Shown piece after piece: positions 29,686 through 64,000 of a stretch of DNA of 64,000 nucleotides. The notes below the pieces were generated by a model. That model did no database searches and was not told the origin of the DNA. It saw only the letters and a program-made list of their open reading frames with translations. How positions within the stretch are numbered: the stretch's first letter is position 1; every line of letters begins with the position of its first letter. A program made the position numbers and the translations under genes. Source of the stretch: Trypanosoma brucei (Eukaryota); NCBI GenBank assembly GCA_000002445.1, contig CM000207.1:2528001-2592000 (forward strand), in the 5' to 3' direction.

Positions 29686-29701
29686 TAAAATATTTTAACA
29701 C
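29686..29701 (+). promoter_or_regulatory. VSG 3'UTR 16-mer variant (taaaatattttaacac)
   Basis: Motif match. Confidence 0.7.
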
Positions 29702-29874: not shown

Positions 29875-29945
29875 ATACGGAGAATAATAGAAACAATAAT
29901 AATAATGGTAATTTGTTGTGAGTTTATTTATACTAATACTAAAAA
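29875..29945 (+). repeat. Degenerate 70-bp repeat (one unit)
   Basis: aataataataatggtaatttgttgtgagtttatttatactaatact. Confidence 0.6.
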
Positions 29946-31333: not shown

Positions 31334-31498
31334 TTGGGGGCATCCGCACTAATCACGGCAATTTTTGCATACGGGACGGTAACCAAAGGAAAAAACGCAG
31401 AGGACTTTGCGGCACTGTGTGGCTTAGTACAATTTGCTAAATCAAAAGTAACGGACGCTACGAAGCCTCAGGAAATAGAGAAAGTCATCAACACGTTG
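31334..31498 (+). pseudogene. VSG N-terminal fragment (signal peptide plus about 40 aa) truncated by ingi B. It reads in frame into the ingi 5' region.
   Basis: ORF 31334..31837 begins MGASALITAIFAYGTVTKGKNAEDFAALCGLVQFAK..., which is a typical VSG N-terminus. From DAGHLNVVPGS onward it continues into ingi sequence. Confidence 0.65.
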
Positions 31499-34400
31499 GC
31501 TGCTATAAATTTCGCATTCCCTAGCGATGCCGGCCACCTCAACGTGGTGCCAGGGTCCATTACCCCGTATCATCGGGGGAAGCCAAGAGCCAGCAGAGTT
31601 CCTTTCATGGGGAACACTGCTGTGCTCCGGCTACGGCATCATACAGCACAGGGATCAGCAGCGTCTTGCTGGGACACCGTTTTTCATTTGTCGGTCCCTG
31701 GGCACGTGGCTAGCGTGCCATCAGCAGTATCATCCGCACTAAGATGCTGCTGTCCGGTGATGTGGAAGAGAATCCCGGCCCGTCGTTGCGCGGGATGCAG
31801 TGGAACTGCGCCGGGCTATCTCAAGGAAAGAGATTAGCACTCCACAAAACCCTTGTTGATGAGCGGATCGCCTTTTGTCTGTTGAGCGAGACAAGGATGA
31901 CGCTTGGAGAGGCGGCTTTCTTTAGCGTTGCTGACTACCAACATCATGGAATAGCTCGTAACTGCAAAGGAGGTGGTGTATCAATACTAGTGAGGGAGGA
32001 CTTACCAGTCGAGACCGGTATGGCCGTTATTGGTCGCATTGAACAAGTGCATGCAACAATTCACCTTGCACGTGGAACGGCGCTGACTGTCACGTCGGCA
32101 TACATCCCACCAAAACACACCTTCACGGCAACTGACCTAGATACGCTTCTGACAACTGACGGTGCCCAGCTCATCGGTGCAGACGCTAACGCACACGCGT
32201 TGGCATGGGATCGCGCGAGCCCACCAAATACCAAGGGTGAAACCCTCACACAGTGGTGCATTGACAACCAGTTTCTGGTATGTAACACTGGTGAGTGCAC
32301 CAGGTACACGCGCCACCACGGGGAGTCCACCCCTGATGTGACACTGTCAAGGAATTGCACAGTGTACACGTGGACATCGCTGTATTCTCCCGATAGCGAT
32401 CACCATCACATATTTTTCGACGATATCGTTGGAGACGACACAGATGCACTGAGTTGCCCGCGGCTTCGAAAGCCCATGTACGCATGGCTAAAAGCTAACT
32501 GGAGGAATTTCCGTCTCAAGGTTCACGAGCTCTGCAGGAAAATTGGTAGAGAGAAGAATGTCAACACTCTGGAACAGAAATTGAGCTCCGCCATCCGCAC
32601 TGCGACGAATGTCTCCGTCCCCCGTGGCTGCAGAGTAACGCCACCACATTGGACACCTGCGCTCGCGAAAATCGATGAAGAGATCGCTGGATGCGCACCC
32701 TCCCACCGAAGGGAAAAGTTGGTAGCCACGCGTAAGCAGATCCTGGACCGTACCACAAAGAAGAGATGGAGCACGCTATGCTCCAGACTTGCGGTGTCAG
32801 ACTGCTGCAGTTGGCACATTGTCAAGAAGGTATATGCGCCACGAACACTAACCACACCGGCTGTACTTGTTGATAACGCGGCCACCACGGACTACCATCA
32901 AGCTGAGAGGTTCAGTAAACTGTACTCGTCCCGTGCAAGAAGGCACCCCGACTCACACCCACCGGCACCAATAAAGACGATAGCGAGTGAGTTCAGTCCC
33001 ATCACGATGGCTGAACTACGGAGATCGATCAAACTGCTACAGAGTGGATCCGCAGCAGGACCTGATTGCTTATACAACGAGGCAATACAACATTTCGGTA
33101 GAACAGCGCTGAATGTTGTTCTGAGGCTATTCAATGAGAGCCTACGAATGGGAGTCGTGCCGCCTGCATGGAAGATTGGTGTTATCATCCCCATCCTGAA
33201 GGCCGGAAAAAAGGGCGGAGGACCTCGATTCTTACAGGACTGTAACACTCACGAGCTGTCTCTGCAAAGTCATGGAGCGCATAATTGCCGCGAGGCTTAG
33301 AGACACTGTTGAGTCCCAGCTGATGCTACAGCAATCAGGCTTTCGCCCCGGATGCTCAACGCTCGAACAACTCCTGCACGTCCGCGCTGCCCTCTGCCGC
33401 CCCACGCACCAATATCGTACGGGTGCTGTATTCGTTGACTACGAGAAGGCATTCGATACAGTAGACCACGACAAAATTGCGAGGGAAATGCACAGAATGA
33501 AGGTATCACCCCACATTGTGAAGTGGTGCGTATCATTTCTGAGTAACCGAACTGGCAGAGTGAGATTCAAGGAGAAGCTTTCCAGAAGCAGAACATTTGA
33601 GCGAGGAGTGCCACAAGGAACTGTCCTTGGCCCAATCATGTTCATTATTGTCATGAACTCGTTGAGCCAGCGCCTTGCAGAAGTGCCGTTACTGCAGCAC
33701 GGATTCTTTGCAGACGACCTGACGCTACTTGCGAGGCACACAGAGAGGGATGTCATCAACCACACACTGCAATGCGGCCTAAACGTGGTGTTACAGTGGT
33801 CAAAAGAGTACTTCATGTCTGTCAACGTAGCGAAAACAAAATGCACACTCTTCGGGTGTATAGAGCGCCACCCCCTTACATTACAACTGGACGGCGAAAG
33901 AATAGGAGCTGACAGGACACCGAAGCTTCTAGGAGTAACATTCCAGTGTCTGCAAGGGATGGCAACACATGCGGCCGAAACGAGACGCAAGATGGACTTC
34001 CGACTACTGCAGATAGTGTCCATCTCAGCTTCTACATGGGGGCCAAGACGACAAGTACTGAGAGCTTTTTATCTAGCACTCGTACAGGCACACACAATGT
34101 ATGGCATTGAGGTATGGTACTGGGACGCTTCGGAACGAAGTCGTGACCTCCTTGCAGCAGCACAACACAAAGCCAGTCGCATCATAGCCGGCATACCGCA
34201 TGGGACGCGCAAAGAGGACTCTCTGCTGGAAGCAAACCTCCTGCCACTCAAGACGGCCACTCTTGTGCGCAGCATGAAATTCATACTGATCTGTGAGTCA
34301 CGAGGCGGATGTTTGCGGCGCAGTGCTGAGGAAGTATACCGCAACAAACACCCAGTCAGAGCCCAACATTCCCGCATCATGCGGTCCTATCCACACCTCC

Positions 34401-36636
34401 GCATTGAGCCACGCGAGCACCCACTAGAGAAATCGACGCTCCGCCACAGCTGTCGACCGCTATTTCACACGCAGATAAAGCCTGTGTGCGCTGATGACCC
34501 TGACGATGTCAAAAGGGAGGCTTCCGAAAAGTGGATTGAACGGCATTTTTCACGGAGGGGGAAGGAGCTACCGCGGCGAGAGCACTACGAATTGTGGACT
34601 GATGGATCCGTGTCCCTCGGTGAGAAGTCCGGAGCAGCTGCCCTGCTCTATAGAAACAATACGCTTATTTGTGCACCCAAAACCGGAGCAGGGGAACTCT
34701 CATGCAGTTACAGAGCGGAATGCGTATCATTAGAGATAGGACTGCAACGGCTGCTGAAATGGCTTCCGGCATACAGAAGCACACCGAGCAAGTTGTCTAT
34801 CTTCTCTGACTCGCCGTCAATGTTAACAGCACTGCAGACAGGCCCCCTAGCCGTAACGGACCCAATTCTAAGACGACTATGGAGGCTTCTGCTTCAAGTT
34901 CAGAGAAGGAAGTTGCGTATCCGACTGCAATTTGTGTTCGGCCATTGTGGCGTGAAACGGAATGAGGTTTGTGATGAAATGGCCAAAAAGGCCGTAAATT
35001 TACCACAGTTGCGAGACACATAGATCCCCGACATCATTGCTTATGCGAAGCGAGTGCTTAGGTCGGAAGAAGTCCATGAGAACACTCATAGGTTTGGTAT
35101 CACGGGCAACAACTTTCCAACAAAGCATAAAGAAAAACTGACGAGGGAAGAAGAAACGGCACTGGCACGCTTTCGGGTTGGGTCTTCAAGACACTATGGA
35201 TGGATGTTGCGAAAGATCAACCCGAGTGTGCCTCCACAGTGCCGATGGTGCAACCCGCAAAATGCAGAGATAGGGCCAACAATACAAACAGCCCCAACTG
35301 TTGCGACACGCACTCTTCAGAGAACCTCCGAACCGACAAAATGTACGGAATGTGATGCCACATACCAATGCCGCTCGAGTGCTGTAACGCATATGGTAAA
35401 CAAACACGGCTTTGTGCGAGCTGATGCCCTCCGGAGGATCAAATACGGCGATGCAACACCTGCAGTGGATATCCCCCCGGAGCCCCCTCCAGTGGTGCCT
35501 ATCGTCCCTCTACCATCGAGCACACGAGTCCCGATGAGACCGCAGGTACTTCATTGTACCATCTGTGCCTCCAAATTCGCAGTGCCAGGCCGACTATTAC
35601 ACCACCTTAGAACAATACATGGTATAGGCAGCGGTAGTTGCCGCGTGAAAAGGGGGCGAGAGAACGAGGACTCAGTGCAAGGAGATGGTAGAGCCCCAGC
35701 AGCGCCAGTCTCTCAGGATACACGGAAGCTGCCGTTTCAATGTGACCTGTGCGAGGCGAGCTTCGGTACACGCTCTTCCCTGTCACTACACAAGAAATTC
35801 AAACATAAGAGCATAGTGACGGAGGACGGTACCGTAGTGGTGGTGCAATTCCCTCGTAAGCTTGCCCGTGAGGAAAATGTTGACGTCCCGGGGAAAGGCG
35901 AGGTGCAGTGTGGTGTGTGTCAAAAAGTGCTCAGTTGCAGGGACTCCCTCATCCGACACTGTAAGGCTTTCCACAAAGGTGAGGGAGTCGAGCTTAAATG
36001 CAGCAAAAGCACAAAATTGTGTGCCACTGATTCCCCGCATACAAACACATCCATGTTGGTGTGCCCGACATGCGGAAGGCAGTGTGCTAGCAAAACTGGC
36101 CTCACCCTACATCAAAAGAAGATGCACGGTATGAAGGTAGAGCGCGCTGTTACCATCCAACGCGGCGACTTCGAAGAAACGTCGCTGCACTTGATGAGCT
36201 GCCCCTGTTTGAAGGAGTTACGTGTCAGGTTTGCGGTAGAAGGTGAGTGTGTGCAGGATGTATGTTTTTCTAAAAGGCTGGCGCAGTTTCTCATTGCGGT
36301 TGAACGGAACCTGCCGCAGGTGAAGTCCTCACCTAAGGTAACAGTCATACAACCCACTCTCCCTTCTGCAACTTCCCCCCTTATTGCCGAGTGTGGAGCT
36401 AGCAGGAAAAGCACCGGACGCAGGAATAGTCCATACACCCTCAGAGACAGAGAGGGTATGCAGTCAACAAGCAACAGGAACAGAAAGAGGGGGAGAGAAT
36501 AATAAACGAATAACAAAAATCAAAACAAAAGGATTGCTAATTGACATCTTTTGGAGAGTCCGGGTTGGGTGGCTTCTCGCCCCATCTGCTGTATTCCGTT
36601 CAACTGCGGAGCTACAACAAAAATTATAGAGAGTGT
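31499..36636 (+). mobile_element. ingi retrotransposon, degenerate copy. It is 3'-truncated by about 130 bp and joined directly to a 70-bp repeat.
   Basis: Its 5' end (ccctagcgatgccggccacctcaacgtggtgccagg) is homologous to copies A and D. The ORF is split into 31744..33300, 33272..35023 and 35054..36502. The last ingi-homologous bases (ctacaacaaaaattatagag) run straight into gagtgtgttgtgagtgtgcatatacgaatattataataagag. Confidence 0.9.
31744..36502 (+). pseudogene. ingi polyprotein pseudogene. It has a +1 frameshift in a G-run near 33205 and a TGG-to-TAG nonsense change at 35021-35023. The MLLSGDVEENPGP 2A-like start is retained.
   Basis: Alignment by eye against copies A and D: B reads aaaaaagggcggagg where D reads aaaaaaggcggagg, and B reads gacacatagatcc where D reads gacacatggatcc. 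Confidence 0.85.
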
Positions 36637-36790
36637 GTTGTGAGTGTGCATATACGAATATTATAATAAGAGCTGTAATAATAGTAATAATAATAATAAT
36701 GATAATGATAGATAATAATAATAATAAGAAAGTGTTGTGAGTGTGTGTATACGAATATTATAATAAGACAAGTAATAAAAAACATAATAA
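36637..36790 (+). repeat. 70-bp repeat block (2 units)
   Basis: Two near-perfect cores are present: gagtgtgttgtgagtgtgcatatacgaatattataataagag and gaaagtgttgtgagtgtgtgtatacgaatattataataagac. Confidence 0.9.
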
Positions 36791-37683
36791 GAAAAGCAAT
36801 GATAAAAACGAAGGCAGAAGGGGTTTGACAACGGCTATGAACAGGTAACAGAACAAGAAAACCACCGGACGGTAAGTGACAGCGTCCATAGACCAAGTCA
36901 GATCCAGATTACAACCGGCAGTAACAGCAGCCAGCCGACCCGAAGCCACCACCTCAAGCGCTAGAACAGGCAGGACAAGCAATGCCTAAAGCGTCAAACA
37001 TTCGACTCTGACATAAACTCGCAGTGACAAACCAACAGCTGCGGAGCCAAAGGCGGCGGTAGCGCTACCAGATCACAAGAGAACAGCAAAAGGATGAACA
37101 AATAAAGACAAACCGACACCGGCCTACAACCAAAAACCAAAACCGCCACCAAGTACAGGCATCGGTATAAAAACTGTTTTTACACCAGCTTTAATGCAGA
37201 ACGACCGCAGAAAACGGCGCACACGGCCTTAGAAATGAGCACTCTAACCCAGCTTAAACCAATAACGCCACAGCGCCTGCAAGAACAAAAAAAAGGGAAA
37301 ACAGCGGCTTTTAAACTGCTGCTAAAGTCTAATAAATTTAACTAGAAGTTGAAACAGCACACAATGAGTGGCAATATCTGATAACGAAAACGCAGCAAAA
37401 GCAGGCGGCAGCGTCAGCAAAGCACTAAATACAACACTGAAACCGAACGACGCAAAACCAAAGCAGCAAGAGTCACCGCAGCATCAGCAAACGAGACCAA
37501 CAAACTTACGGAAAAGAATCAGGACACAATTGGCCTAAACCCTAAGCCACAGCAACGGCACTTTCTCAGAGATGTGCAAAGAAACCAGATTTTACGCTTT
37601 TACAAAGACGCCACAAACGCCAAATCTCCTAAATCTCCGCAGTCCAAACACCTACGAAACCAAACAGCAAGAGAAAAGCAAAT

Positions 37684-39050
37684 GTGGAGACTAAAAGCGT
37701 TAGCAATGCTAATAGCAACAATACCAAGCTCAGCTGCAGCAGCGAAGCAAGAAGCAAACAGACCCCAGTGCGGCAATCCGTGCGGTTGCATGGTGCGCAT
37801 CGACGTGCTGTTGGAAAGGCTGGAAAAAGCGGCAAGCACAGGGGTAGCGAAAATTTCAGGAAACGCAGAAGCAATGCAGCAGCTAGCACTAGGAGCGGCA
37901 AGCACAGACGACAAGGTAGCACGGCTTCTAGCACCATTGCTAGCCGTAGCAACGCACGTAAACGCAGAAGCGACGGCAAAGCTCTCAGCAGCACCGGACA
38001 CGATCGCAAGGGCAACGGCGCTACTAAATAAAAAGAAAGCAGTGCAAGAAGCTAAAAAACGGCTGTACGGTAGCTATGAGGCGGCAATTTTAACGAGAGC
38101 CAGCCACTTCGGCGACGCCACGTACGCGCCGAAGACGCACAAGCAAGCACCGCGGACAGCGTGCGGAGAATTCCAGGACGATGCCTATTTTTCTCTGGAC
38201 GAGCTTAATTTTGACCATGATGCCGGACTAGGCGACTCAAACCTAGGACTAAACGTCAAACAGGCTTGCTACAAAAGCAACCCGGGCTCACCGTGCGACG
38301 CAAGCGGCAGCACCGACAAACTAAGCACAGCAATAACTATAGCGCCCGCGGCAACGGCCACTGCGTCAGGACCACTTGCAGGCGGCAATGAAAAGATCAC
38401 AACGAAGGCAACAATAACACTGGCCAATGAAACTGACGATGAAAAGACGGTACTCAAAGCGGCGCAGACGGCCGAAAAACACCTAACATCAGTGCCAGAC
38501 CTATCAAAGCTAAGCACGTACACGGACAGCACAGCATTCAAATTACTAGTAAACCGATTAGTGATGGGGACAGCAGCAGACAGCCCAATACAAGGAAAGA
38601 TGGCTGAAGAAACGGCCAACTTTATAACCAAAAATTACGGCAAAGACGACGAAGAGTTTACAAAAAACATATGGGAAAAAATAAAAACAGCCACGACAAT
38701 ATACTACGAAGATAAGGCAAAAAACAAAAAAGATCAAAGACCTAACCGAAACCGAACAAGTCACCGCGCTAACACCTGCATTTTTAAAGGCGGACAAAGA
38801 AACGCCAGCAACGATAAAAGAGACAACACCAGCAGGAACAGGAGAAAAACCAGATACAGAAGACAAAACAGAAAAGAAAAACGTGGATAAAAAGGACGAG
38901 GTTTGCACAGGCGCTGAAGAAGGTAAATGTGACAAGACAAAATGCGATTGGAACGCAGAGAAAAAACAGTGCAAAGTTAAAGAGGGGGCAGTTACTATTT
39001 CAGCTGTAATTAAAGCCCCTCTTTTGCTTGCATTTTTGGTTCTAGCTTAA
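37684..39050 (+). pseudogene. VSG pseudogene. It is frameshifted near 38720 and ends ...CDKTKCDWNAEKKQCKVKEGAVTISAVIKAPLLLAFLVLA*.
   Basis: ORF 37574..38890 contains the signal peptide MWRLKALAMLIATIPSSAAAA. Its C-terminal domain and GPI signal lie in another frame. It is a close paralogue of the C-terminus of the 21081 VSG. Confidence 0.75.
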
Positions 39051-39109: not shown

Positions 39110-39125
39110 TGATATATTTTAACAC
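39110..39125 (+). promoter_or_regulatory. VSG 3'UTR canonical 16-mer (tgatatattttaacac)
   Basis: Exact match. Confidence 0.85.
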
Positions 39126-39302
39126 TATTCGAAAAACAATGCGAAAATTAGTGAAAATTTGGAAATTTTGACTTTTATTTAAATGTATGTGACTGTGGTT
39201 CATGGGTATAAAGTAGTAGTCTAATAGGATATGATAATAGAGTGTCATTCAATTTTGTATTATTATGCTTATCATATGAATATTATTAGTAATTTAGTGT
39301 TT

Positions 39303-39533
39303 TAATAATGATAATGATAATAATAGAAGAGTGTTGTGAGAGCGTGTACATACGAATATTATATTAAGAGCAGTAATAATAATAATAATAATGATAATAA
39401 TGATAGGAAAGTGTTGTGAGAGTGCGTATATACGAATATAATAATGAGAGCAGTAATGATAATAATAATGATAATGATAGGAGATTGTTGTGAGTGTGTA
39501 TATACTAATATTATAATGAGAACAGCAATAATG
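39303..39533 (+). repeat. 70-bp repeat block (3 units)
   Basis: Three cores are present: agaagagtgttgtgagagcgtgtacatacgaatattatattaagag, ggaaagtgttgtgagagtgcgtatatacgaatataataatgagag and ggagattgttgtgagtgtgtatatactaatattataatgag. Confidence 0.9.
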
Positions 39534-41285: not shown

Positions 41286-42797
41286 ATGATATCATGGCTA
41301 GCGAGGACCGCAATTTTTCTGAGGCTTACGGTGCCAGCGATGCATGCGGCCACAAACCCAGGTGATAACGCCGCAGAGTTCAAGGCGCTTTGCGCAGTCA
41401 TAAAACTAGCGAAAATACAGCCGAGTGACCTGCAGCCTGGGACCGAAGCCGAGAAAGCTCTCAAAGAAATTGAAGTGTTAAACATGTCGGTAGCTGACGA
41501 GAAGTGGCAAAAACAATATGGCGATGGAACAGAAAAGTTTGCTTGGTCAACTTTCGAATCAAAATTAGGAGACACCGACCCCAAAAAACACTGGAAAGAG
41601 AACTGGCAAAACTGGCTTGACACAAAAAAAAGACTGGAAGCCGCAAAAAAAACTGACGAATGGAAACACACCCACCCTGCGCCAGCAAGCTCCGAGGCAA
41701 GGCAAGTAGCATCAAAGCAAATAGCAGCTCTAACAGCGGCAGCGACCAAACTGTACCAAGATTTCAAGACAAAAGCGGACAACCTGAACACAGCTGACAG
41801 AGAGGCAGTAACCTCGGAACTAGCCAAGGCGCTGCACGGAGCAGACAAGGTTACAGCGGAAGGCCAAGTCACACCGCACAAGACGCCCGACGGAGTACGA
41901 AGCGGCACCAGCTGCAACGCCGCAGCTAGCGGCCAGCGCCTGTTAACGGACCTCATGTGCATCTGTGCAGGACAAACACAACTGACAAGCAAAGCGTGCA
42001 CCACGACACCACTCTCAACGGGGTGGACAGGCGGCTTTGGAAACGCTGCCACACAACAAGCGGAACTGGAGGCAAAGTGCGGCACAGGATATCCAGCAGA
42101 TCTAACAGCGGAAAATATAGAGAACGCTGTACATGGCCTCGAAATCTTGGTCGGGCGGCATAGCGGCACCAACAACAAGGGCGGCTACCTCGGCAAAGAC
42201 GCAGGCGCAAATTGCGATGGCACTGACGGCAACATCTGCGCCGACTATACCAACTACTTCAAAGATGCGGCAAACACAGCCGACGCAGAACTACCGTGGG
42301 CGAAACACACGCGACTAGCAGCAACCGCCTTGATAAACAGGGCTAAAAACTTCAGGGCGGCCGAAGGGCTAGCGGAGCGCATTGAAACGATAAAAATACA
42401 GACAGAATCCACTTTCCAACTAACGCAGTTCACATTTCCGACGCAAAAAGCGGAGGCGGCAGAAGAAGAGCTCACCACAAGCAAAAATAAAGACTGCAAT
42501 AATCACAAAACAAACTCAACCTGCACAGAAAATAAATGCAAATGGGAAGGAACAAGTGAAACAGTTGGGGAATGCAAACCTAAAGATGGGGAGAATAAGA
42601 CAAACGCAGCAGGGACAGAAGGAGCTGCAGGAGCAACAAACTCCGAAGCCAAAAAGTGCTCTGAAAAGAAAAAGCAAGAAGACTGCAAAGATGGCTGTAA
42701 GTGGGAGGGAACAGAGTGCAAAGATTCCTCTATTCTAGAAAACAAACAATTTGCCCTGAGTATGGTTTCTTCTGCATTTGTTTCCTTGATTTTCTGA
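41286..42797 (+). CDS. VSG, intact (503 aa). It has a signal peptide and the canonical long GPI signal ...CKDSSILENKQFALSMVSSAFVSLIF*.
   Basis: It is a full ORF. The N-terminus is AIFLRLTVPAMHAATNPGDNAAEFKALCAVIKLAK, and the C-domain carries the CKWEGTSETVGECKPK and CKDGCKWEGTEC motifs. Confidence 0.85.
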   Translation: MISWLARTAIFLRLTVPAMHAATNPGDNAAEFKALCAVIKLAKIQPSDLQPGTEAEKALKEIEVLNMSVADEKWQKQYGDGTEKFAWSTFESKLGDTDPKKHWKENWQNWLDTKKRLEAAKKTDEWKHTHPAPASSEARQVASKQIAALTAAATKLYQDFKTKADNLNTADREAVTSELAKALHGADKVTAEGQVTPHKTPDGVRSGTSCNAAASGQRLLTDLMCICAGQTQLTSKACTTTPLSTGWTGGFGNAATQQAELEAKCGTGYPADLTAENIENAVHGLEILVGRHSGTNNKGGYLGKDAGANCDGTDGNICADYTNYFKDAANTADAELPWAKHTRLAATALINRAKNFRAAEGLAERIETIKIQTESTFQLTQFTFPTQKAEAAEEELTTSKNKDCNNHKTNSTCTENKCKWEGTSETVGECKPKDGENKTNAAGTEGAAGATNSEAKKCSEKKKQEDCKDGCKWEGTECKDSSILENKQFALSMVSSAFVSLIF

Positions 42798-57650: not shown

Positions 57651-59030
57651 ATGCTTAATAAAGGTCGCTACCTCCTTATCTATCTTTTGGCCGCTGTGTC
57701 GTTGGCCAACTCCGCAAACGCAGCAGCAGGAGACGCCATAAAGAAGCAATACTGGACGAGCTTCTGCGATGTCGCAGTTGAAGCTGAGACAATACCGTCT
57801 CAAGCGATAACCAGCCTAGAGGCGGCGGCAACGGAGGGCCTAAACAAGTTCAAATTCCTACTAAAGGCGCAAATATACGCCGAAGGAAACTTGACAAGGC
57901 CGACGGCTCCCGAAGAAAGAATGCTATGGACGTTTGGCGCGCATGAAACAGAAAAGGCGTTCAATTACTATACCAGCGCTGCTCCAGGCCAGATAATAAC
58001 GGCGGTTAGGGATGCAGGACGACTGCAAGGAGCAATAGGTGAATGGATAAACCTGATGGCAGAAGGTTCAGACGGCACAGACGGATGTCTCAGCAACAAC
58101 GACGGTGGTGGCAACCCAATAAGCGGGAGAAACGCGCTGACTGGAGACATGTAAAAATGTAAACTGAAATGGGAACCGGTACACAAAGGACAGGTACAAG
58201 GTACTTTGCTTGGACCAACAGGCCTTACGGGTAGTTTCTCAACGGGCGTAGCCCACGGAAGCTTAGTCAACGGAAACAAAAAATGCGGCATAAATTCGCC
58301 AAACACAGGCTTCCTGTTAAACGACGCGGATACAAGCGGCAGCGGCAACGGCGCAAATGTAGCGGGCCACACTCCAAAGATGGCTGCTGGACTACTAACC
58401 ATAGACAACACAGGCCTAATAATCGAGGTGTTAGCTGACACAGAAACTAAGCAGGCAACACACCCTTACCTGCATTACGCAGTAAAAGCCAAAACGAACG
58501 TTCAGCAGATGTTCAACTCCGATATGCCGCAAACTTTAGAGACAGCAAAGACATCTGAGCAACTAAAGCGGGCAGCAAGAAGGCAACTACTAGGCAAAAA
58601 AGACAGTGAAACTTCCGAAGACAACCAGATACCCGACAAAATCAAAAGTGTATTCACGACCAACGACAAATACCTAGCGATCCTACACAAAAACATAGAC
58701 GCCATGCCTACACCCAAAGAGCTGACAGATGATAAGCAGGAAACCACCCTAGGCGAAATCAACGACGTGGACCTCCTAATTCGTCTGTATTTTTACTATG
58801 TGGATGCCAACAAGAGAAAACTGCAAAACACATTAGACGAGCTACGAAATGTAAATAAAAAGCAAGAACCAAAATCAGCAGAAGACAAGGAAAAAGAGTG
58901 CAATACCAAAGGCAATGATAAGCAAGAAGAGTGTGAAAAACTAGAGAGTCAAGGGTGTATTTTTAACAAGGAGGGCAAGAAGTGGAAAAAGTGCACATTG
59001 AGCGAGGAAGGCAAAAAAGGAAGGAGCTAA
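57651..59030 (+). pseudogene. VSG pseudogene with an internal frameshift near 58155-58205. The C-terminus is truncated, with no GPI signal, by the ingi C 3' end.
   Basis: The signal peptide is LLIYLLAAVSLANSANA. VSG-like ORFs 57651..58154 and 58206..59030 end ...CIFNKEGKKWKKCTLSEEGKKGRS*. The ingi 3' terminus begins at about 59062. Confidence 0.7.
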
Positions 59031-59061
59031 ACAACAATCAGAAAAAGAAGGAGGGAAAGAT

Positions 59062-60133
59062 GAGAATTTTAATTTTAATTTTCTTCGTGCCTTCGTGGGA
59101 GTTTCCCCCCACTGGCGCGGCCATCAGCCATCACCGTAGAGCCCTGAGATGCTATCGGTCTGGCGACTGTGGCAGAGTCTCCCTTTTTTTATTCATCCTA
59201 ATACACCCTCTATAATTTTTGTTGTAGCTCCGCAGTTGAACGGAATACAGCAGATGGGGCGAAAAGCCTCCCACTCCGGACTCTCCAAAAGATGTCAATT
59301 AGCAATCCTTTTGTTTTGATTTTTGTTATTCGTTTATTATTCTCTCCCCCTCTTTCTGTTCCTGTTGCTTGTTGACTGCATACCCCCTCTGTCTCTGAGG
59401 GTGTATGGACTATTCCTGCGTCCGGTGCTTTTCCTGCTAGCTCCACACTCGGCAATAAGGGGGGAAGTTGCAGAAAGGAAAGTGGGTTGTATAACTGTTA
59501 CCTTAGGTGAGGACTTCACCTGCAGCCGGCTCCGTTCAACCGCAATGAGAAACTGCGCCAGCCTTTTAGAGAAACATACATCCTGCACACACACACACAC
59601 ACACACCTTCCACCGCAAACCTGACACGTAACTCCTTCAAACTGGGACAGCTCATCAAGTGCAGCGACGTTTCTTCGAAGTCGCCGCGTTGGATGGTAAC
59701 AGCGCGCTCTACCTTCATACCGTGCATCTTCTTTTGATGTAGGGTGAGGCCAGTTTTGCTAGCACACTGCCTTCCGCATGTCGGGCACACCAACATGGAT
59801 GTGTTTGTATGCGGGGAATCAGTGGCACACAATTTTGTGCTTTTGCTGCATTTAAGCTCGACTCCCTCACCTTTGTGGAAAGCCTTACAGTGTCGGATGA
59901 GGGAGTCCCTGCAACTGAGCACTTTTTGACACACACCACACTGCACCTCGCCTTTCCCCGGGACGTCAACATTTCCCCCACGGGCACGCTTACGAGGGAA
60001 TTGCAACACCACTACGGTACCGTCCTCCGTCACTATGCTCTTATGTTTGAATTTCTTGTGTAGTGACAGGGAAGAACGTGTACCGAAGCTCGCCTCGCAC
60101 AGGTCACATTGAAACGGCAGCTTCCGTGTATCC
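59062..60133 (-). mobile_element. ingi 3' fragment, about 1.07 kb, covering the C-terminal zinc-finger region and the 3' end with its A-rich tail
   Basis: It is homologous to 11385-12432 of copy A. ORF 59566..60189 (-) encodes ...DTRKLPFQCDLCEASFGTRSSLSLHKKFKHKS... The 3' end has ttcgtgccttcgtgggagtttcccccc, preceded by ttttaattttaatttt. Confidence 0.85.
59588..59606. repeat. (CA)9 microsatellite inside ingi C. It is expanded relative to copies A and B.
   Basis: This copy reads cacacacacacacacacac, where copy A reads cacacacactcacc at 11888. Confidence 0.9.
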
Positions 60134-63100
60134 TCCCTGGTGATGCTGGTCACATCAACGTGGTGCCAGGATCCAGTACCCCGTATCATCGGGTGAAGCC
60201 AAGAGCCAGCAGCGTTCCTTTCATGGGGAACACTGCTGTGCTCTGGCTACGGCATCATACAGCACAGGGATCAGCAGCGTCTTGCTGGGACACCGTTTTT
60301 CATTTGTCGGTCCCTGGGCACGTGGCTAGCGTGCCATCAGCAGTATCATCCGCACTAAGATGCTGCTGTCCGGTGATGTGGAAGAGAATCCCGGCCCGTC
60401 GTTGCGCGGGATGCAGTGGAACTGCGCCGGGCTATCTCAAGGAAAGAGATTAGCACTCCACAAAACCCTTGTTGATGAGCGGATCGCCTTTTGTCTGTTG
60501 AGCGAGACAAGGATGACGCCTGGAGAGGCGGCTTTCTTTAGCGTTGCTGGCTACCAACATCACGGAATAGCTCGTAACTGCAAAGGAGGTGGTGTATCAA
60601 TACTAATGAGGGAGGACCTACCAGTCGAGACCGGTATGGCCGTTGTTGGTCGCATTGAACGAGTGCATGCAACAATTCACCCTGCACGTGGAACGGCGCT
60701 GACTGTCACGTCGGCATACATCCCACCAAAACACACCTTCACGGCAACTGACCTAGATACGCTTCTGACAACTGACGGTGCCCAGCTCATCGGTGCAGAC
60801 GCTAACGCACACGCGTTGGCATGGGATCGCGCGAGCCCACCAAATACCAAGGGTGAAACCCTCACACAGTGGTGCATTGACAACCAGTTTCTGGTATGTA
60901 ACACTGGTGAGTGCACCAGGTACACGCGCCACCACGGGGAGTCCACCCCTGATGTGACACTGTCAAGGAATTTCACAGTGTACACGTGGACATCGCTGTA
61001 TTCTCCCGATAGCGATCACCATAACATATTTTTCGACGTTATCGTTGGAGACGACACAGATGCACTGAGTTGCCCGCGGCTTCGAAAGCCCATGTACGCA
61101 TGGCTAAAAGCTAACTGGAGGAATTTCCGTCTCAAGGTTGACGAGCTCTGCAGGAAAATTGGTAGAGAGAAGAATGTCAACACTCTGGAACAGAAATTGA
61201 GCTCCGCCATCCGCACTGCGACGAATGTCTCCGTCCCCCGTGGCTGCAGAGCAACGCCACCACATTGGACACCTGCGCTCGCGAAAATCGATGAAGAGAT
61301 CGCTGGATGCGCACCCTCCCACCGAAGGGAAAAGTTGGTAGCCACGCGTAAGCAGATCCTGGACCGTACCACAAAGAAGAGATGGAGCACGCTATGCTCC
61401 AGACTTGCGGTGTCAGACTGCTGCAGTTGGCACATTGTCAAGAAGGTATATGCGCCACGACCACTAACCACACTGGCTGTACTTGTTGATAACGCGGCCA
61501 TCACGGACTACCATCAAGCTGAGAGGTTCAGTAAACTGTACTCGTCCCGTGCAAGAAGGCACCCCGACTCACACCCACCGGCACCAATAAAGACGATAGC
61601 GAGTGAGTTCAGCCCCATCACGATGGCTGAACTATGGAGATCGATCAAACTGCTTCCGACCGGATCCGCAGCAGGACCTGATTGCTTATACAACGAGGCA
61701 ATACAACATCTCGGTAGAACAGCGCTGAATGTTGTTCTGAGGCTATTCAATGAGAGCCTACGAACGGGAGTCGTGCCGCGTGCATGGAAGACTGGTGTTA
61801 TCATCCCCATCCTGAAGGCCGGAAAAAAGGCGGAGGACCTCGATTCTTACAGGACTGTGACGCTCACGAGCTGTCTCTGCAAAGTCATGGAACGCATAAT
61901 TGCCGCGAGGCTTAGAGACACTGTTGAGTCCCAGCTGACGCCGCAGCAATCAGGCTTTCGCCCCGGATGCTCAACGCTCGAACAACTCCTGCACGTCCGC
62001 GCTGCCCTCTGCCGCCCTACGCACCAATATCGTACGGGTGCTGTATTCGTTGACTACGAGAAGGCATTCGATACAGTAGACCACGACAAAATTGCGAGGG
62101 GAATGCACAGAATGAAGGTATCACCCCACATTGTGAAGTGGTGCGTATCATTTCTGAGTAACCGAACTGGCAGAGTGAGATTCAAGGAGAAGCTTTCCAG
62201 AAGCAGAACATTTGAGCGAGGAGTGCCACAAGGAACTGTCCTTGGCCCAATCATGTTCATTATTGTCATGAACTCGTTGAGCCAACGCCTTGCAGAAGTG
62301 CCGTTACTGCAGCACGGATTCTTTGCAGACGACCTGACGCTACTTGCGAGGCACACAGAGAGGGATGTCATCAACCACGCACTACAATGCGGCCTCAACG
62401 TGGTGTTACAGTGGTCAAAAGAGTACTTCATGTCTGTCAACGTAGCGAAAACGAAGTGCACACTCTTCGGGTGTATAGAGCGCCACCCCCTTACATTGCA
62501 ACTGGACGGCGAAAGAATAGGAGCTGACAGGATACCGAAGCTTCTAGGAGTAACATTCCAGTGTCAGCAGGGGATGGCAACACATGCGGCCGAAACGAGA
62601 CGCAAGATGGACTTCCGACTACTGCAGATAGTGTCCATCTCAGCTTCTACATGGGGGCCAAGACGACAAGTGCTGAGAGCTTTTTATCTAGCACTCGTAC
62701 AGGCACACACCATGTATGGCATTAAGGTATGGTACTGGGACGCTTCGGAACGAAGTCGTGACCTCCTTGCATCAGCACAACACAAAGCCAGTCGCATCAT
62801 AGCCGGCATACCGCATGGGACGCGCAAAGAGGACTCTCTGCTGGAAGCAAACCTCCTGCCACTCAAGACGGCCACTCTTGTGCACAGCATGAAATTCATG
62901 CTGATGTGTGAGTCACGAGGCGGATGCTTGCGGCGCAGTGCTGAAGAAGCATACCACAGCAAACACCCAGTCAGAGCCCAACATTCCCGCATCATGCGGT
63001 CCTATCCACACCTCCGCATTGAGCCACGCGAGCACCCACTAGAGACACCGACGCTCCGCCACAGCTGCCGACCGCTATTTCACACGCAGATAAAGCCTGT

Positions 63101-64000
63101 GTGCGCTGATGACCCTGACGATGTCAAAAGGGAGGCTTCCGAAAAGTGGATTGAACGGCATTTTTCACGGAGGGGGAAGGAGCTACCGCGGCGAGAGCAC
63201 TACGAATTGTGGACTGATGGATCCGTGTCCCTCGGTGAGAAGTCCGGAGCAGCTGCCCTGCTCTATAGAAACAATACGCTTATTTGTGCACCTAAAACCG
63301 GAGCAGGGGAACTCTCATGCAGTTACAGAGCGGAATGCGTAGCATTAGAGATAGAACTGCAACGGCTGCTGAAATGGCTTCCGGCATACAGAAGCACACC
63401 TAGCAGGTTGTCCATCTTCTCTGACTCGCTGTCAATGTTAACAGCACTGCGGACAGGCCCCCTAGCCGTAACGGACCCAATTCTAAGACGACTATGGAGG
63501 CTTCTGCTTCAAGTTCAGAGAAGGAAGATACGTATCCGACTTCAATTTGTGTTTGGCCATTGTGGCGTGAAACGGAATGAAGTTTGTGATGAGATGGCCA
63601 AAAAGGCCGCTGATTTACCACAGTTGCGAGACACATGGATCCCCGACATCATTGCTTATGCGAAGCGAGTGCTTAAGTCGGAAGAAGTCCATGAGAACAC
63701 TCATAGGTTTGGTATCACGGGCAACCACTTTCCAACAAAGCATAAAGAAGAACTGACGAGGGAAGAAGAAACGGCACTGGCACGCTTTCGGGTTGGGTCT
63801 TCAAGGCACTATGGATGGATGTTGCGAAAGATTAACCCGAGTGTGCCTCCACAGTGCCGATGGTGTAACCCGCAACATGCAGCGATAGGACCAACAATAC
63901 AAACAGCCCCAACTGTTGCGACACGCACTCTTCAAAGAACCTCCGAACCGACCAAATGTACGGAATGTGATGCCACATACCAATGCCGCTCGAGTACTGT
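60134..64000 (+). mobile_element. ingi retrotransposon. Its 5' end begins exactly at the breakpoint in ingi C and it continues past the window end.
   Basis: The 5' sequence ccctggtgatgctggtcacatcaacgtggtgccagg is shared with copy A. The junction at 60133|60134 joins antisense ingi C sequence (…cttccgtgtatcct) to the sense-strand ingi 5' end. Confidence 0.9.
60360..64000 (+). CDS. ingi polyprotein ORF. It starts MLLSGDVEENPGP and runs 1213 codons to the window end with no stop found on hand translation (3'-partial).
   Basis: It is absent from the ORF track only because it runs off the window edge. Manual translation follows the copy A protein throughout. Confidence 0.75.
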   Translation, partial: MLLSGDVEENPGPSLRGMQWNCAGLSQGKRLALHKTLVDERIAFCLLSETRMTPGEAAFFSVAGYQHHGIARNCKGGGVSILMREDLPVETGMAVVGRIERVHATIHPARGTALTVTSAYIPPKHTFTATDLDTLLTTDGAQLIGADANAHALAWDRASPPNTKGETLTQWCIDNQFLVCNTGECTRYTRHHGESTPDVTLSRNFTVYTWTSLYSPDSDHHNIFFDVIVGDDTDALSCPRLRKPMYAWLKANWRNFRLKVDELCRKIGREKNVNTLEQKLSSAIRTATNVSVPRGCRATPPHWTPALAKIDEEIAGCAPSHRREKLVATRKQILDRTTKKRWSTLCSRLAVSDCCSWHIVKKVYAPRPLTTLAVLVDNAAITDYHQAERFSKLYSSRARRHPDSHPPAPIKTIASEFSPITMAELWRSIKLLPTGSAAGPDCLYNEAIQHLGRTALNVVLRLFNESLRTGVVPRAWKTGVIIPILKAGKKAEDLDSYRTVTLTSCLCKVMERIIAARLRDTVESQLTPQQSGFRPGCSTLEQLLHVRAALCRPTHQYRTGAVFVDYEKAFDTVDHDKIARGMHRMKVSPHIVKWCVSFLSNRTGRVRFKEKLSRSRTFERGVPQGTVLGPIMFIIVMNSLSQRLAEVPLLQHGFFADDLTLLARHTERDVINHALQCGLNVVLQWSKEYFMSVNVAKTKCTLFGCIERHPLTLQLDGERIGADRIPKLLGVTFQCQQGMATHAAETRRKMDFRLLQIVSISASTWGPRRQVLRAFYLALVQAHTMYGIKVWYWDASERSRDLLASAQHKASRIIAGIPHGTRKEDSLLEANLLPLKTATLVHSMKFMLMCESRGGCLRRSAEEAYHSKHPVRAQHSRIMRSYPHLRIEPREHPLETPTLRHSCRPLFHTQIKPVCADDPDDVKREASEKWIERHFSRRGKELPRREHYELWTDGSVSLGEKSGAAALLYRNNTLICAPKTGAGELSCSYRAECVALEIELQRLLKWLPAYRSTPSRLSIFSDSLSMLTALRTGPLAVTDPILRRLWRLLLQVQRRKIRIRLQFVFGHCGVKRNEVCDEMAKKAADLPQLRDTWIPDIIAYAKRVLKSEEVHENTHRFGITGNHFPTKHKEELTREEETALARFRVGSSRHYGWMLRKINPSVPPQCRWCNPQHAAIGPTIQTAPTVATRTLQRTSEPTKCTECDATYQCRSST

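What the first reader, a model, noticed from the sequence alone, without database searches (positions are those of the whole stretch)
36600..36680. ingi B 3' end fused directly to a 70-bp repeat through shared short homology
Copy B ends at …ctacaacaaaaattatagag and runs without any A-tail into gagtgtgttgtgagtgtgcatatacgaatattataataagag, a near-consensus 70-bp unit. At the corresponding point copy A continues …tatagagggtgtattaggatg…. The ingi sequence atagagGGTGT resembles the 70-bp atagGAGAGTGTTGT. This suggests a microhomology-mediated deletion or recombination between the retroelement tail and the VSG-switching repeat. The 70-bp repeats are the known homology used for VSG gene conversion, so their joining to mobile elements may help shuffle cassettes.
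Basis: seen in the sequence. Interest (0 to 1): 0.6.

Follow-up and report, generated by a model that had tools for sequence, protein, structure and literature searches.

The report
Truncated ingi retroelement joined to VSG repeat
In a Trypanosoma brucei surface-antigen gene array, a retrotransposon that had landed inside one antigen gene lost its tail and the rest of that gene in a deletion, and the break was rejoined to the next gene's 70-bp repeat through a short stretch of similar sequence; this is an ordinary repair scar, not a new mechanism.

Summary
The window is T. b. brucei TREU927 chromosome 9. ingi copy B (31518-36631, + strand) has a complete 5' end. It lacks the last 137 nt, the A-tail and the 12-bp target-site duplication, and it runs straight into a 70-bp repeat unit. 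A public table of TREU927 ingi elements already lists this copy as 3'-truncated.

- ingi B sits inside a VSG gene. The 61 codons before it match the VSG_B N-terminal domain, and the remaining ~1.3 kb of that gene is missing.
- The 70-bp unit at the junction is a published natural variant carrying an extra GT. The ingi tail and this unit match at 20 of 25 aligned positions, and a crossover inside GAG (36629-36631) reproduces the observed sequence exactly.

A random ingi/70-bp junction would fall in register on so good a match with a probability of about 0.0007-0.006.

The best explanation is a deletion of at least ~1.8 kb after insertion, repaired by microhomology-mediated end joining, the only end-joining route found in T. 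brucei. The idea that such fusions help shuffle VSG cassettes has no support here. This is a single, ordinary scar of a known kind, of low interest.

The parts
29880..29945 (+). Degenerate 70-bp repeat marking the 5' boundary of the cassette of the interrupted VSG ('VSG X'). It lies ~200 bp after the 3'-UTR 16-mer of the preceding VSG (29686-29701).
   Evidence: weak BLAST matches to the 70-bp units at 36677-36763 and 39455-39516.
31334..31517 (+). N-terminal fragment (61 codons) of a B-type VSG ('VSG X'), cut off by the 5' end of ingi B.
   Evidence: Pfam VSG_B PF13206, profile positions 5-58 of 352, E 1.4e-10, 41.4 bits against a cut-off of 25.
31518..36631 (+). ingi copy B. The 5' end is complete. 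The coding region is degenerate, split into three ORF fragments with endonuclease, RT, RNase H and C2H2 zinc-finger domains. The 3' end is truncated by 137 nt plus the A-tail.
   Evidence: Listed as NC_007282:2559519-2564639, element 1-5122, '5' ok / 3' tr', in PMC4660242 supplementary file 1.
36615..36639 (+). Patch of similarity that contains the crossover: ingi AACAAAAATTATA-GAGGGTGTATT against 70-bp AATAATAATAATAGGAGAGTGTGTT. The ambiguous crossover bases are GAG at 36629-36631.
36632..36783 (+). 70-bp repeats of the next cassette. The first unit lacks its TAA tract and starts at the GT-rich core (the GAGAGTGTGTTGTGAG variant). A TAA/TGA tract and a second core at 36732 follow.
   Evidence: The first unit is identical in form to published BES units and to the 77-bp consensus oligo of PMC4858185.
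37682..39050 (+). VSG-Y, the gene served by the fused 70-bp repeats. It has a signal peptide at 37682, a frameshift near 38890, and a C-terminal domain plus GPI signal in another frame (38883-39050). The 3'-UTR 16-mer is at 39110-39125.
11368..11512 (-). Intact 3' tail of ingi copy A, the sequence missing from B, ending in a run of nine A.
59063..59207 (-). Intact 3' tail of ingi fragment C', a second reference for the sequence missing from B.

Best explanation
ingi B retrotransposed in full length into codon ~61 of a B-type VSG gene in the chromosome 9 array. Later a DNA break occurred downstream of the element, plausibly in or near the fragile 70-bp repeat of the next cassette. The break was resected and repaired by microhomology-mediated end joining. 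A ~25-nt patch of the ingi tail (AACAAAAATTATAGAGGGTGTATT) paired with the similar start of a 70-bp unit (AATAATAATAATAGGAGAGTGTGTT), and the strands were joined inside the shared GAG. This deleted the last 137 nt of ingi, its A-tail, the 12-bp target-site duplication, the remaining ~1.3 kb of the VSG with its 3' UTR, and the TAA tract of the repeat, at least ~1.8 kb in total.

Shown: the truncation, the in-register similarity, the absence of the duplication and of the VSG remainder, and the VSG identity of the 5' flank.

Inferred: the order of events, the position of the break, the repair pathway, and that only one cassette's worth of DNA was lost.
For: - B is colinear with A and C from ingi nt 1 up to ATAGAG, then switches to 70-bp sequence.
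- The tail occurs only in A and C'.
- The 5'-flank 12-mer TAAATTTCGCAT has no direct copy downstream.
- The 5' flank is a VSG_B N-terminal domain. No VSG remnant lies between the repeat and VSG-Y.
- The unit at the junction equals the published GT-insertion variant of the 70-bp repeat.
- The junction lies in register on the third or fourth best ingi/70-bp local alignment. The chance of this is 7e-4 to 6e-3.
- T. brucei end joining is exclusively MMEJ, with 5-20 bp microhomologies that tolerate mismatches, and natural examples occur in expression sites (PMC3045614).
- RPA and repair proteins are enriched on 70-bp repeats (PMC12975129).
- About a dozen other ingi copies in TREU927 have an intact 5' end and a truncated 3' end.
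Against: - No ancestral allele is available, so the deletion is inferred from one haplotype of one strain.
- The left part of the parental 70-bp unit is reconstructed from published units, not observed. With only the units of this window as models, the perfect microhomology is just 3 nt (P about 0.05).
- Induced MMEJ deletions in T. brucei were 81-948 bp, smaller than the 1.8 kb or more needed here.
- The same junction would result from ectopic recombination or one-sided gene conversion.
Confidence: 0.62

Rival explanations
1. One-sided MMEJ gene conversion or ectopic recombination. A break downstream of ingi B was repaired by copying a VSG-Y cassette (70-bp repeat to the VSG 3' end) from another locus. 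Homologous recombination acted at the downstream end, and microhomology annealing to the ingi tail acted at the upstream end. The segment from 36632 onward would then be imported rather than originally adjacent.
For: Glover et al. observed exactly this class of event, with HR at one end and MMEJ at the other (PMC3045614). 70-bp repeats are the usual 5' limit of copied VSG cassettes (PMC4858185). The junction similarity fits this model as well as it fits a deletion. The 70-bp-to-ATG distance of cassette Y is ~0.9 kb, shorter than the ~1.3-1.8 kb of its neighbours.
Against: There is no second copy of VSG-Y or its upstream region in the window. There is no close paralogue in the protein database, although pseudogenes are not represented there. 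This model needs more steps than a simple deletion.
Confidence: 0.17
2. Insertion-coupled origin. During target-primed reverse transcription, a nicked bottom strand inside the 70-bp repeat annealed to the internal similar patch of the ingi RNA instead of the poly(A) tail. The element was therefore born 3'-truncated, and the 5' end was joined ~1.8 kb away with a target-site deletion.
For: The primer/RNA complementarity is the same patch of similarity. ingi A in the same window also has intact ends but no target-site duplication, and its flanks are not contiguous. So insertion-associated or insertion-linked rearrangements may be common here.
Against: There is no 12-bp target-site duplication, although its conserved size is characteristic of ingi/RIME insertions (PMC3820030). 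RIME and ingi share the 3' end, which suggests (my inference) that the reverse transcriptase needs it. Internal priming combined with a large target deletion requires two rare events.
Confidence: 0.08
3. Assembly or cloning artefact joining two unrelated places.
For: The region is highly repetitive, and no reads could be inspected. Protein look-ups gave no independent assembly of this locus.
Against: The sequence shared at the junction is far too short and imperfect to mislead an assembler. B differs from A and C by 2-3% along its whole length, so it is a distinct copy. The missing tail is not nearby. A chimeric clone would not be expected to join in register on a rare patch of similarity.
Confidence: 0.04

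Closest known systems
MMEJ-based deletions in T. brucei (Glover, Jun & Horn 2011, PMC3045614), including three putative natural microhomology deletions in VSG expression sites
   Same: The imperfect microhomology lies in the 5-20 bp range with mismatches tolerated. All intervening DNA is lost, there are no filler bases, and the context is subtelomeric VSG DNA.
   Different: This is a natural scar in a silent chromosome-internal array, between a retroelement tail and a 70-bp repeat. The inferred deletion of 1.8 kb or more exceeds the induced ones (81-948 bp).
ingi element next to 70-bp repeats in Lister 427 expression site BES2 (Hertz-Fowler et al. 2008, PMC2567434)
   Same: An ingi and a 70-bp repeat tract are immediate neighbours upstream of a VSG.
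   Different: In BES2 the ingi lies 3' of the repeat array, between the repeats and the VSG. Here it lies 5' of the repeats and is fused to them with loss of its tail. No junction analysis is reported for BES2.
Other 3'-truncated ingi copies in TREU927 (Khan et al. 2015 dataset, PMC4660242)
   Same: This very copy is listed there (element 1-5122, 3' 'tr'), alongside about a dozen other copies with an intact 5' end and a truncated 3' end.
   Different: The table gives no 3' flanks or mechanism. No other entry ends at ingi nt 5119-5124.
Post-insertion, recombination-associated deletions at mammalian L1 elements (recalled from memory, not checked here)
   Same: A LINE-type element loses its 3' part together with flanking host DNA through repair guided by homology or microhomology.
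   Different: The organism and repair repertoire differ, since T. brucei has no classical NHEJ. The partner here is a specialised recombination repeat rather than another LINE.

Membership tests
Tbingi (ingi/RIME non-LTR retrotransposon) | Conserved 5' end (CCCTGG..., the 77-79-nt signature) present from element nt 1 | tested here: met
   B starts CCCTAGCGATGCCGGCCACCTCAACGT, aligned with A and C; the dataset lists element start 1, '5' ok'.
Tbingi (ingi/RIME non-LTR retrotransposon) | Coding capacity for AP-endonuclease, reverse transcriptase, RNase H and C2H2 zinc finger | tested here: met
   PF14529/PF03372, PF00078, PF00075 and PF13894. In B these are split over three ORF fragments, so the copy is degenerate.
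Tbingi (ingi/RIME non-LTR retrotransposon) | 3' end (RIME-B half) ending in a poly(A) tail | tested here: not met
   the last 137 nt and the A-tail are absent from B and present in A and C'. B is a truncated member, not a different family.
Tbingi (ingi/RIME non-LTR retrotransposon) | 12-bp target-site duplication | tested here: not met
   TAAATTTCGCAT occurs once, and there is no direct copy downstream. The 12-bp rule is from PMC3820030.
T. brucei 70-bp repeat | GT-rich core followed by ...ATATACGAATATTATAATAAGAGCAGTAATA and a TAA/TGA triplet tract, with a unit of ~76 bp | tested here: met
   The junction unit has the form of the published BES variant GAGAGTGTGTTGTGAGTGTG..CATATACGAATATTATAATAAGAGC. 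The two cores are 97 bp apart, so the triplet tract is longer than average.
T. brucei 70-bp repeat | Location upstream of a VSG gene in the same orientation | tested here: met
   ~0.9 kb upstream of the VSG-Y start at 37682. The literature gives about 1.5 kb as the usual distance.
MMEJ deletion scar | Microhomology (5-20 bp, mismatches allowed) shared by both parental sequences at the junction, with no filler bases | tested here: met
   20 of 25 positions with one gap, perfect GAG at the crossover, in register, P about 1e-3. The 70-bp parent is reconstructed from published units.
MMEJ deletion scar | Demonstrated loss of the DNA between the two microhomologies, relative to a parental allele | not testable with these tools
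   No other T. brucei assembly or reads were reachable. The loss is inferred from the missing ingi tail, target-site duplication and VSG remainder.
MMEJ deletion scar | Independence from RAD51, and dependence on MMEJ factors | not testable with these tools
   This requires genetics.

The most novel reading that the evidence does not exclude
The ~25-nt similarity between the ingi tail and the start of the 70-bp unit could be a recurrent recombination site. The two other patches of similarity, near ingi nt 4720 and 4966, could serve the same way. Repeated ingi/70-bp fusions would then give VSG cassettes a 5-kb, multi-copy upstream homology arm. That arm could move or activate archive VSGs whose own 70-bp tract is too short.
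Probability: 0.04. Interest if true: 0.6.

Novelty: new member of a known kind. Interest (0 to 1): 0.2.

Why it matters
This is a clean natural example of how the silent VSG archive decays and is remodelled. A retroelement kills one VSG, and error-prone repair guided by microhomology then removes the remains and brings the element up against the next cassette's recombination repeat. The case adds a natural junction, and a larger deletion, to the experimentally defined MMEJ spectrum of T. brucei. It also shows that the ingi tail carries a patch resembling the 70-bp repeat. As a single event, it changes nothing in the understanding of antigenic variation.

Tried and rejected
- **Orthologous loci in other strains.** Four exact-protein look-ups returned nothing, even for the TREU927 protein itself. 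No ancestral allele or independent assembly could be examined.
- **Homologue searches.** The search with the neighbouring intact VSG identified the source (TREU927, 100%), but the next best hit was only 34% identical. The search with VSG-Y found only itself. There is therefore no evidence for a donor copy.
- **VSG remnants downstream.** tblastn of all VSG ORFs of the window against 36790-37680 found nothing, and BLAST of that region against the window found nothing either. VSG X does not continue after the repeat.
- **Target-site duplication.** The search gave only chance-level hits. One 11-of-12 match at 39139-39150 lies on the wrong strand.
- **ingi insertion-site consensus.** It is shown only in figures of the papers held, so the 5' flank could not be scored against it.
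- **Marcello & Barry 2007 archive paper.** It is not held.
- **Rfam.** There were no hits in the window.
- **First null model for microhomology.** It used only the divergent 70-bp units of this window and gave weak significance. It was superseded once published units showed what the parental form probably was.

Full report
**Source and layout**

The window is a silent VSG array of Trypanosoma brucei brucei TREU927. The intact VSG at 41286-42797 is 100% identical to a TREU927 protein carried on a 3,057,547-bp record. The 5' flanks of the three ingi copies match entries for NC_007282 (chromosome 9) in a published table (PMC4660242 supplementary file 1). This places the window at about 2,528,002-2,592,001.

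VSG genes, their 3'-UTR 16-mers and the 70-bp repeat cores are all on the + strand. Self-BLAST shows four ingi pieces:
- A: 11368-16627, minus strand, 5260 nt, complete.
- B: 31518-36639 as aligned by BLAST, + strand.
- C: from 60134, + strand, running off the window.
- C': 59063-60134, minus strand, the last 1072 nt of an ingi.

**The observation**

B is colinear with A and C from element nt 1 up to ...AAATTATAGAG at 36631. A and C' then continue GGTGTATTAGGATGAATAAAAAAAGGGAG... for 137 nt to an A-rich tail. B instead continues AGTGTGTTGTGAGTGTGCATATACGAATATTATAATAAGAGCTGTAATAATA, then a TAA/TGA tract, then a second core at 36732.

The missing tail is found only in A and C'. The public table lists this copy as element 1-5122, '5' ok, 3' tr'. 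The truncation is therefore already recorded, although its 3' partner is not. No other element in that table ends at nt 5119-5124. About a dozen other copies with an intact 5' end are truncated at other points.

**What surrounds it**

The 61 codons immediately before ingi B (31334-31517) match the start of the VSG_B N-terminal domain: Pfam PF13206, profile positions 5-58 of 352, E 1.4e-10. About 1.35 kb upstream lies a degenerate 70-bp repeat (29880-29945), which itself follows the 3'-UTR 16-mer of the previous VSG at 29686. ingi B therefore inserted into the coding region of a VSG, called VSG X here, within a normal cassette.

Nothing of VSG X follows the element:
- The 12-mer before the 5' end, TAAATTTCGCAT, has no direct copy downstream.
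- No VSG-like coding sequence lies between the 70-bp repeats and the next gene.

That next gene, VSG-Y, has its own signal peptide at 37682, a C-terminal domain with a GPI signal, and a perfect 16-mer at 39110. The 70-bp repeats at the junction are thus the 5' boundary of the next cassette.

The simplest reconstruction is a loss of:
- the ingi tail (137 nt), A-tail and target-site duplication;
- about 1.3 kb of VSG X with its 3' UTR;
- the ~220 bp that normally separate a VSG 3' end from the next repeat (spacings);
- the TAA tract of the first unit.

This totals at least about 1.8 kb.

**The breakpoint**

Published 70-bp units read ...AATAATAGGAGAGTGTTGTGAGTGTG.... A natural variant, also used as the 77-bp consensus oligo by Hovel-Miner et al., has an extra GT...ATAGGAGAGTGTGTTGTGAGTGTGTGCATATACGAATATT... 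(PMC4858185 supplements). B's unit is this variant.

Aligning the ingi tail with it gives AACAAAAATTATA-GAGGGTGTATT against AATAATAATAATAGGAGAGTGTGTT, 20 of 25 positions with one gap. A switch from ingi to repeat inside the shared GAG (36629-36631) reproduces B exactly.

This patch ties for third best among local similarities between the whole 5260-nt ingi and the repeat unit. The two better ones are at ingi nt ~4966 and ~4721. I scored every possible ingi x repeat junction by the best local alignment that passes through it in register. The observed score of 12 is reached by 7e-4 of junctions over the whole element, 3.6e-3 over the last 1 kb and 5.8e-3 over the last 300 nt.

An earlier, cruder null used only the divergent repeat units of this window. 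It gave P about 0.05 for the 3-nt perfect match and 0.0045 for 8 nt with one mismatch.

The caveat is that the left part of the parental unit is reconstructed, not observed.

**Mechanism**

In T. brucei, chromosomal end joining was found to be exclusively microhomology-mediated. The microhomologies were 5-20 bp with mismatches tolerated. Putative natural examples occur in expression sites, and some events combine homologous recombination at one end with MMEJ at the other (PMC3045614). 70-bp repeats are enriched for RPA and repair factors (PMC12975129).

I therefore favour, with confidence about 0.6, a break downstream of ingi B followed by resection and annealing of the two similar patches. 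The break was perhaps in the triplet tract of the next repeat. The order of events, the break site and the pathway are inferred.

The same junction could come from other routes:
- One-sided gene conversion importing the VSG-Y cassette (about 0.17). No donor copy was seen in the window or in the protein database, but the genome could not be searched.
- Internal priming of reverse transcription on a nicked repeat, combined with a target deletion (about 0.08). The missing 12-bp duplication, which is otherwise characteristic of ingi insertions (PMC3820030), counts against it.
- An assembly or cloning artefact (about 0.04). This is unlikely because the shared sequence is too short to mislead an assembler, yet lies in register on a rare patch of similarity.

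**Comparison with what is known, and novelty**

An ingi beside 70-bp repeats is known from BES2 of Lister 427, where it lies on the other side of the repeats (PMC2567434). MMEJ scars in VSG loci are known, and 3'-truncated ingis are common. This junction is a new, well-resolved example of a known kind.

The event removed a VSG, is unique in the TREU927 table, and left VSG-Y with only about 1.5 repeat units. Short tracts of this kind were defective in selecting archive donors in experiments. The idea cannot be excluded as a rare route, and a genome-wide survey of the 3' flanks of truncated ingis would settle it.

**Verdict**

- Observation: confirmed.
- Functional speculation: unsupported.
- Interest: low (0.2).

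Noticed in passing
window 10783-17704 (ingi A 11368-16627, minus strand): ingi A has both ends intact and a run of nine A at its tail, but no 12-bp target-site duplication (5' flank ...GTATATTGTAGT, 3' flank TCTGCTGAACTA). One flank is ordinary DNA 585 bp downstream of a 70-bp repeat. The other flank (16628-17704) encodes internal and C-terminal VSG sequence. The 5' half of that VSG is therefore missing. The cause could be ingi-ingi recombination or an insertion with a target-site deletion.
   Followed up: partly
window 57651-64000 (C' 59063-60134 minus strand; C from 60134 plus strand): A 5'-truncated ingi fragment (the last 1072 nt, with an AAAATT-repeat tail rather than a pure A run) abuts head-to-head the exact 5' end of the full-length ingi C. 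The fragment's 3' end lies 33 bp after a frameshifted VSG (57651-59030) that lacks its C-terminal end. This looks like a nested insertion into an older ingi that had itself interrupted a VSG. All three ingi loci in the window thus sit in damaged VSG genes, and none has a target-site duplication.
   Followed up: partly
window 37682-38890: The N-terminal domain of VSG-Y matches no Pfam VSG family at E <= 0.1. Its only database hit at E <= 1e-10 is itself, whereas the neighbouring VSG at 41286 has many relatives at 30-34% identity. VSG-Y is recognisable as a VSG only by its signal peptide, C-terminal domain, GPI signal and 3'-UTR 16-mer.
   Followed up: partly
window 36243-36254 and 36487-36520 (equivalents in A near 11906 and 11660): Two other parts of the ingi 3' region resemble the 70-bp unit at least as well as the breakpoint patch does. 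One is a GT-rich stretch whose (GT)n length differs among copies A, B and C'. The other is an AAGAG...AATAATAA stretch. These would be candidate sites for similar fusions elsewhere.
   Followed up: no
window 29880-29945: The 70-bp repeat of the VSG X cassette is strongly degenerate (core TTTGTTGTGAGTTTATTTATACTAATAC) and was missed by the core-motif search. Motif counts of repeats in arrays are therefore underestimates.
   Followed up: no
window, whole (ingi 5' ends at 16627, 31518, 60134): No Rfam family reaches its gathering score anywhere in the window, even though the 5' ends of L1Tc/ingi-clade elements are described as carrying HDV-like ribozymes (title and abstract of PMC4035085).
   Followed up: no
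PMC4660242 supplementary file 1 (external): The published ingi table reports many elements twice, at two coordinates with identical 5' flanks (for example NC_007282 94646 and 2544576). Counts taken from it are approximate.
   Followed up: no
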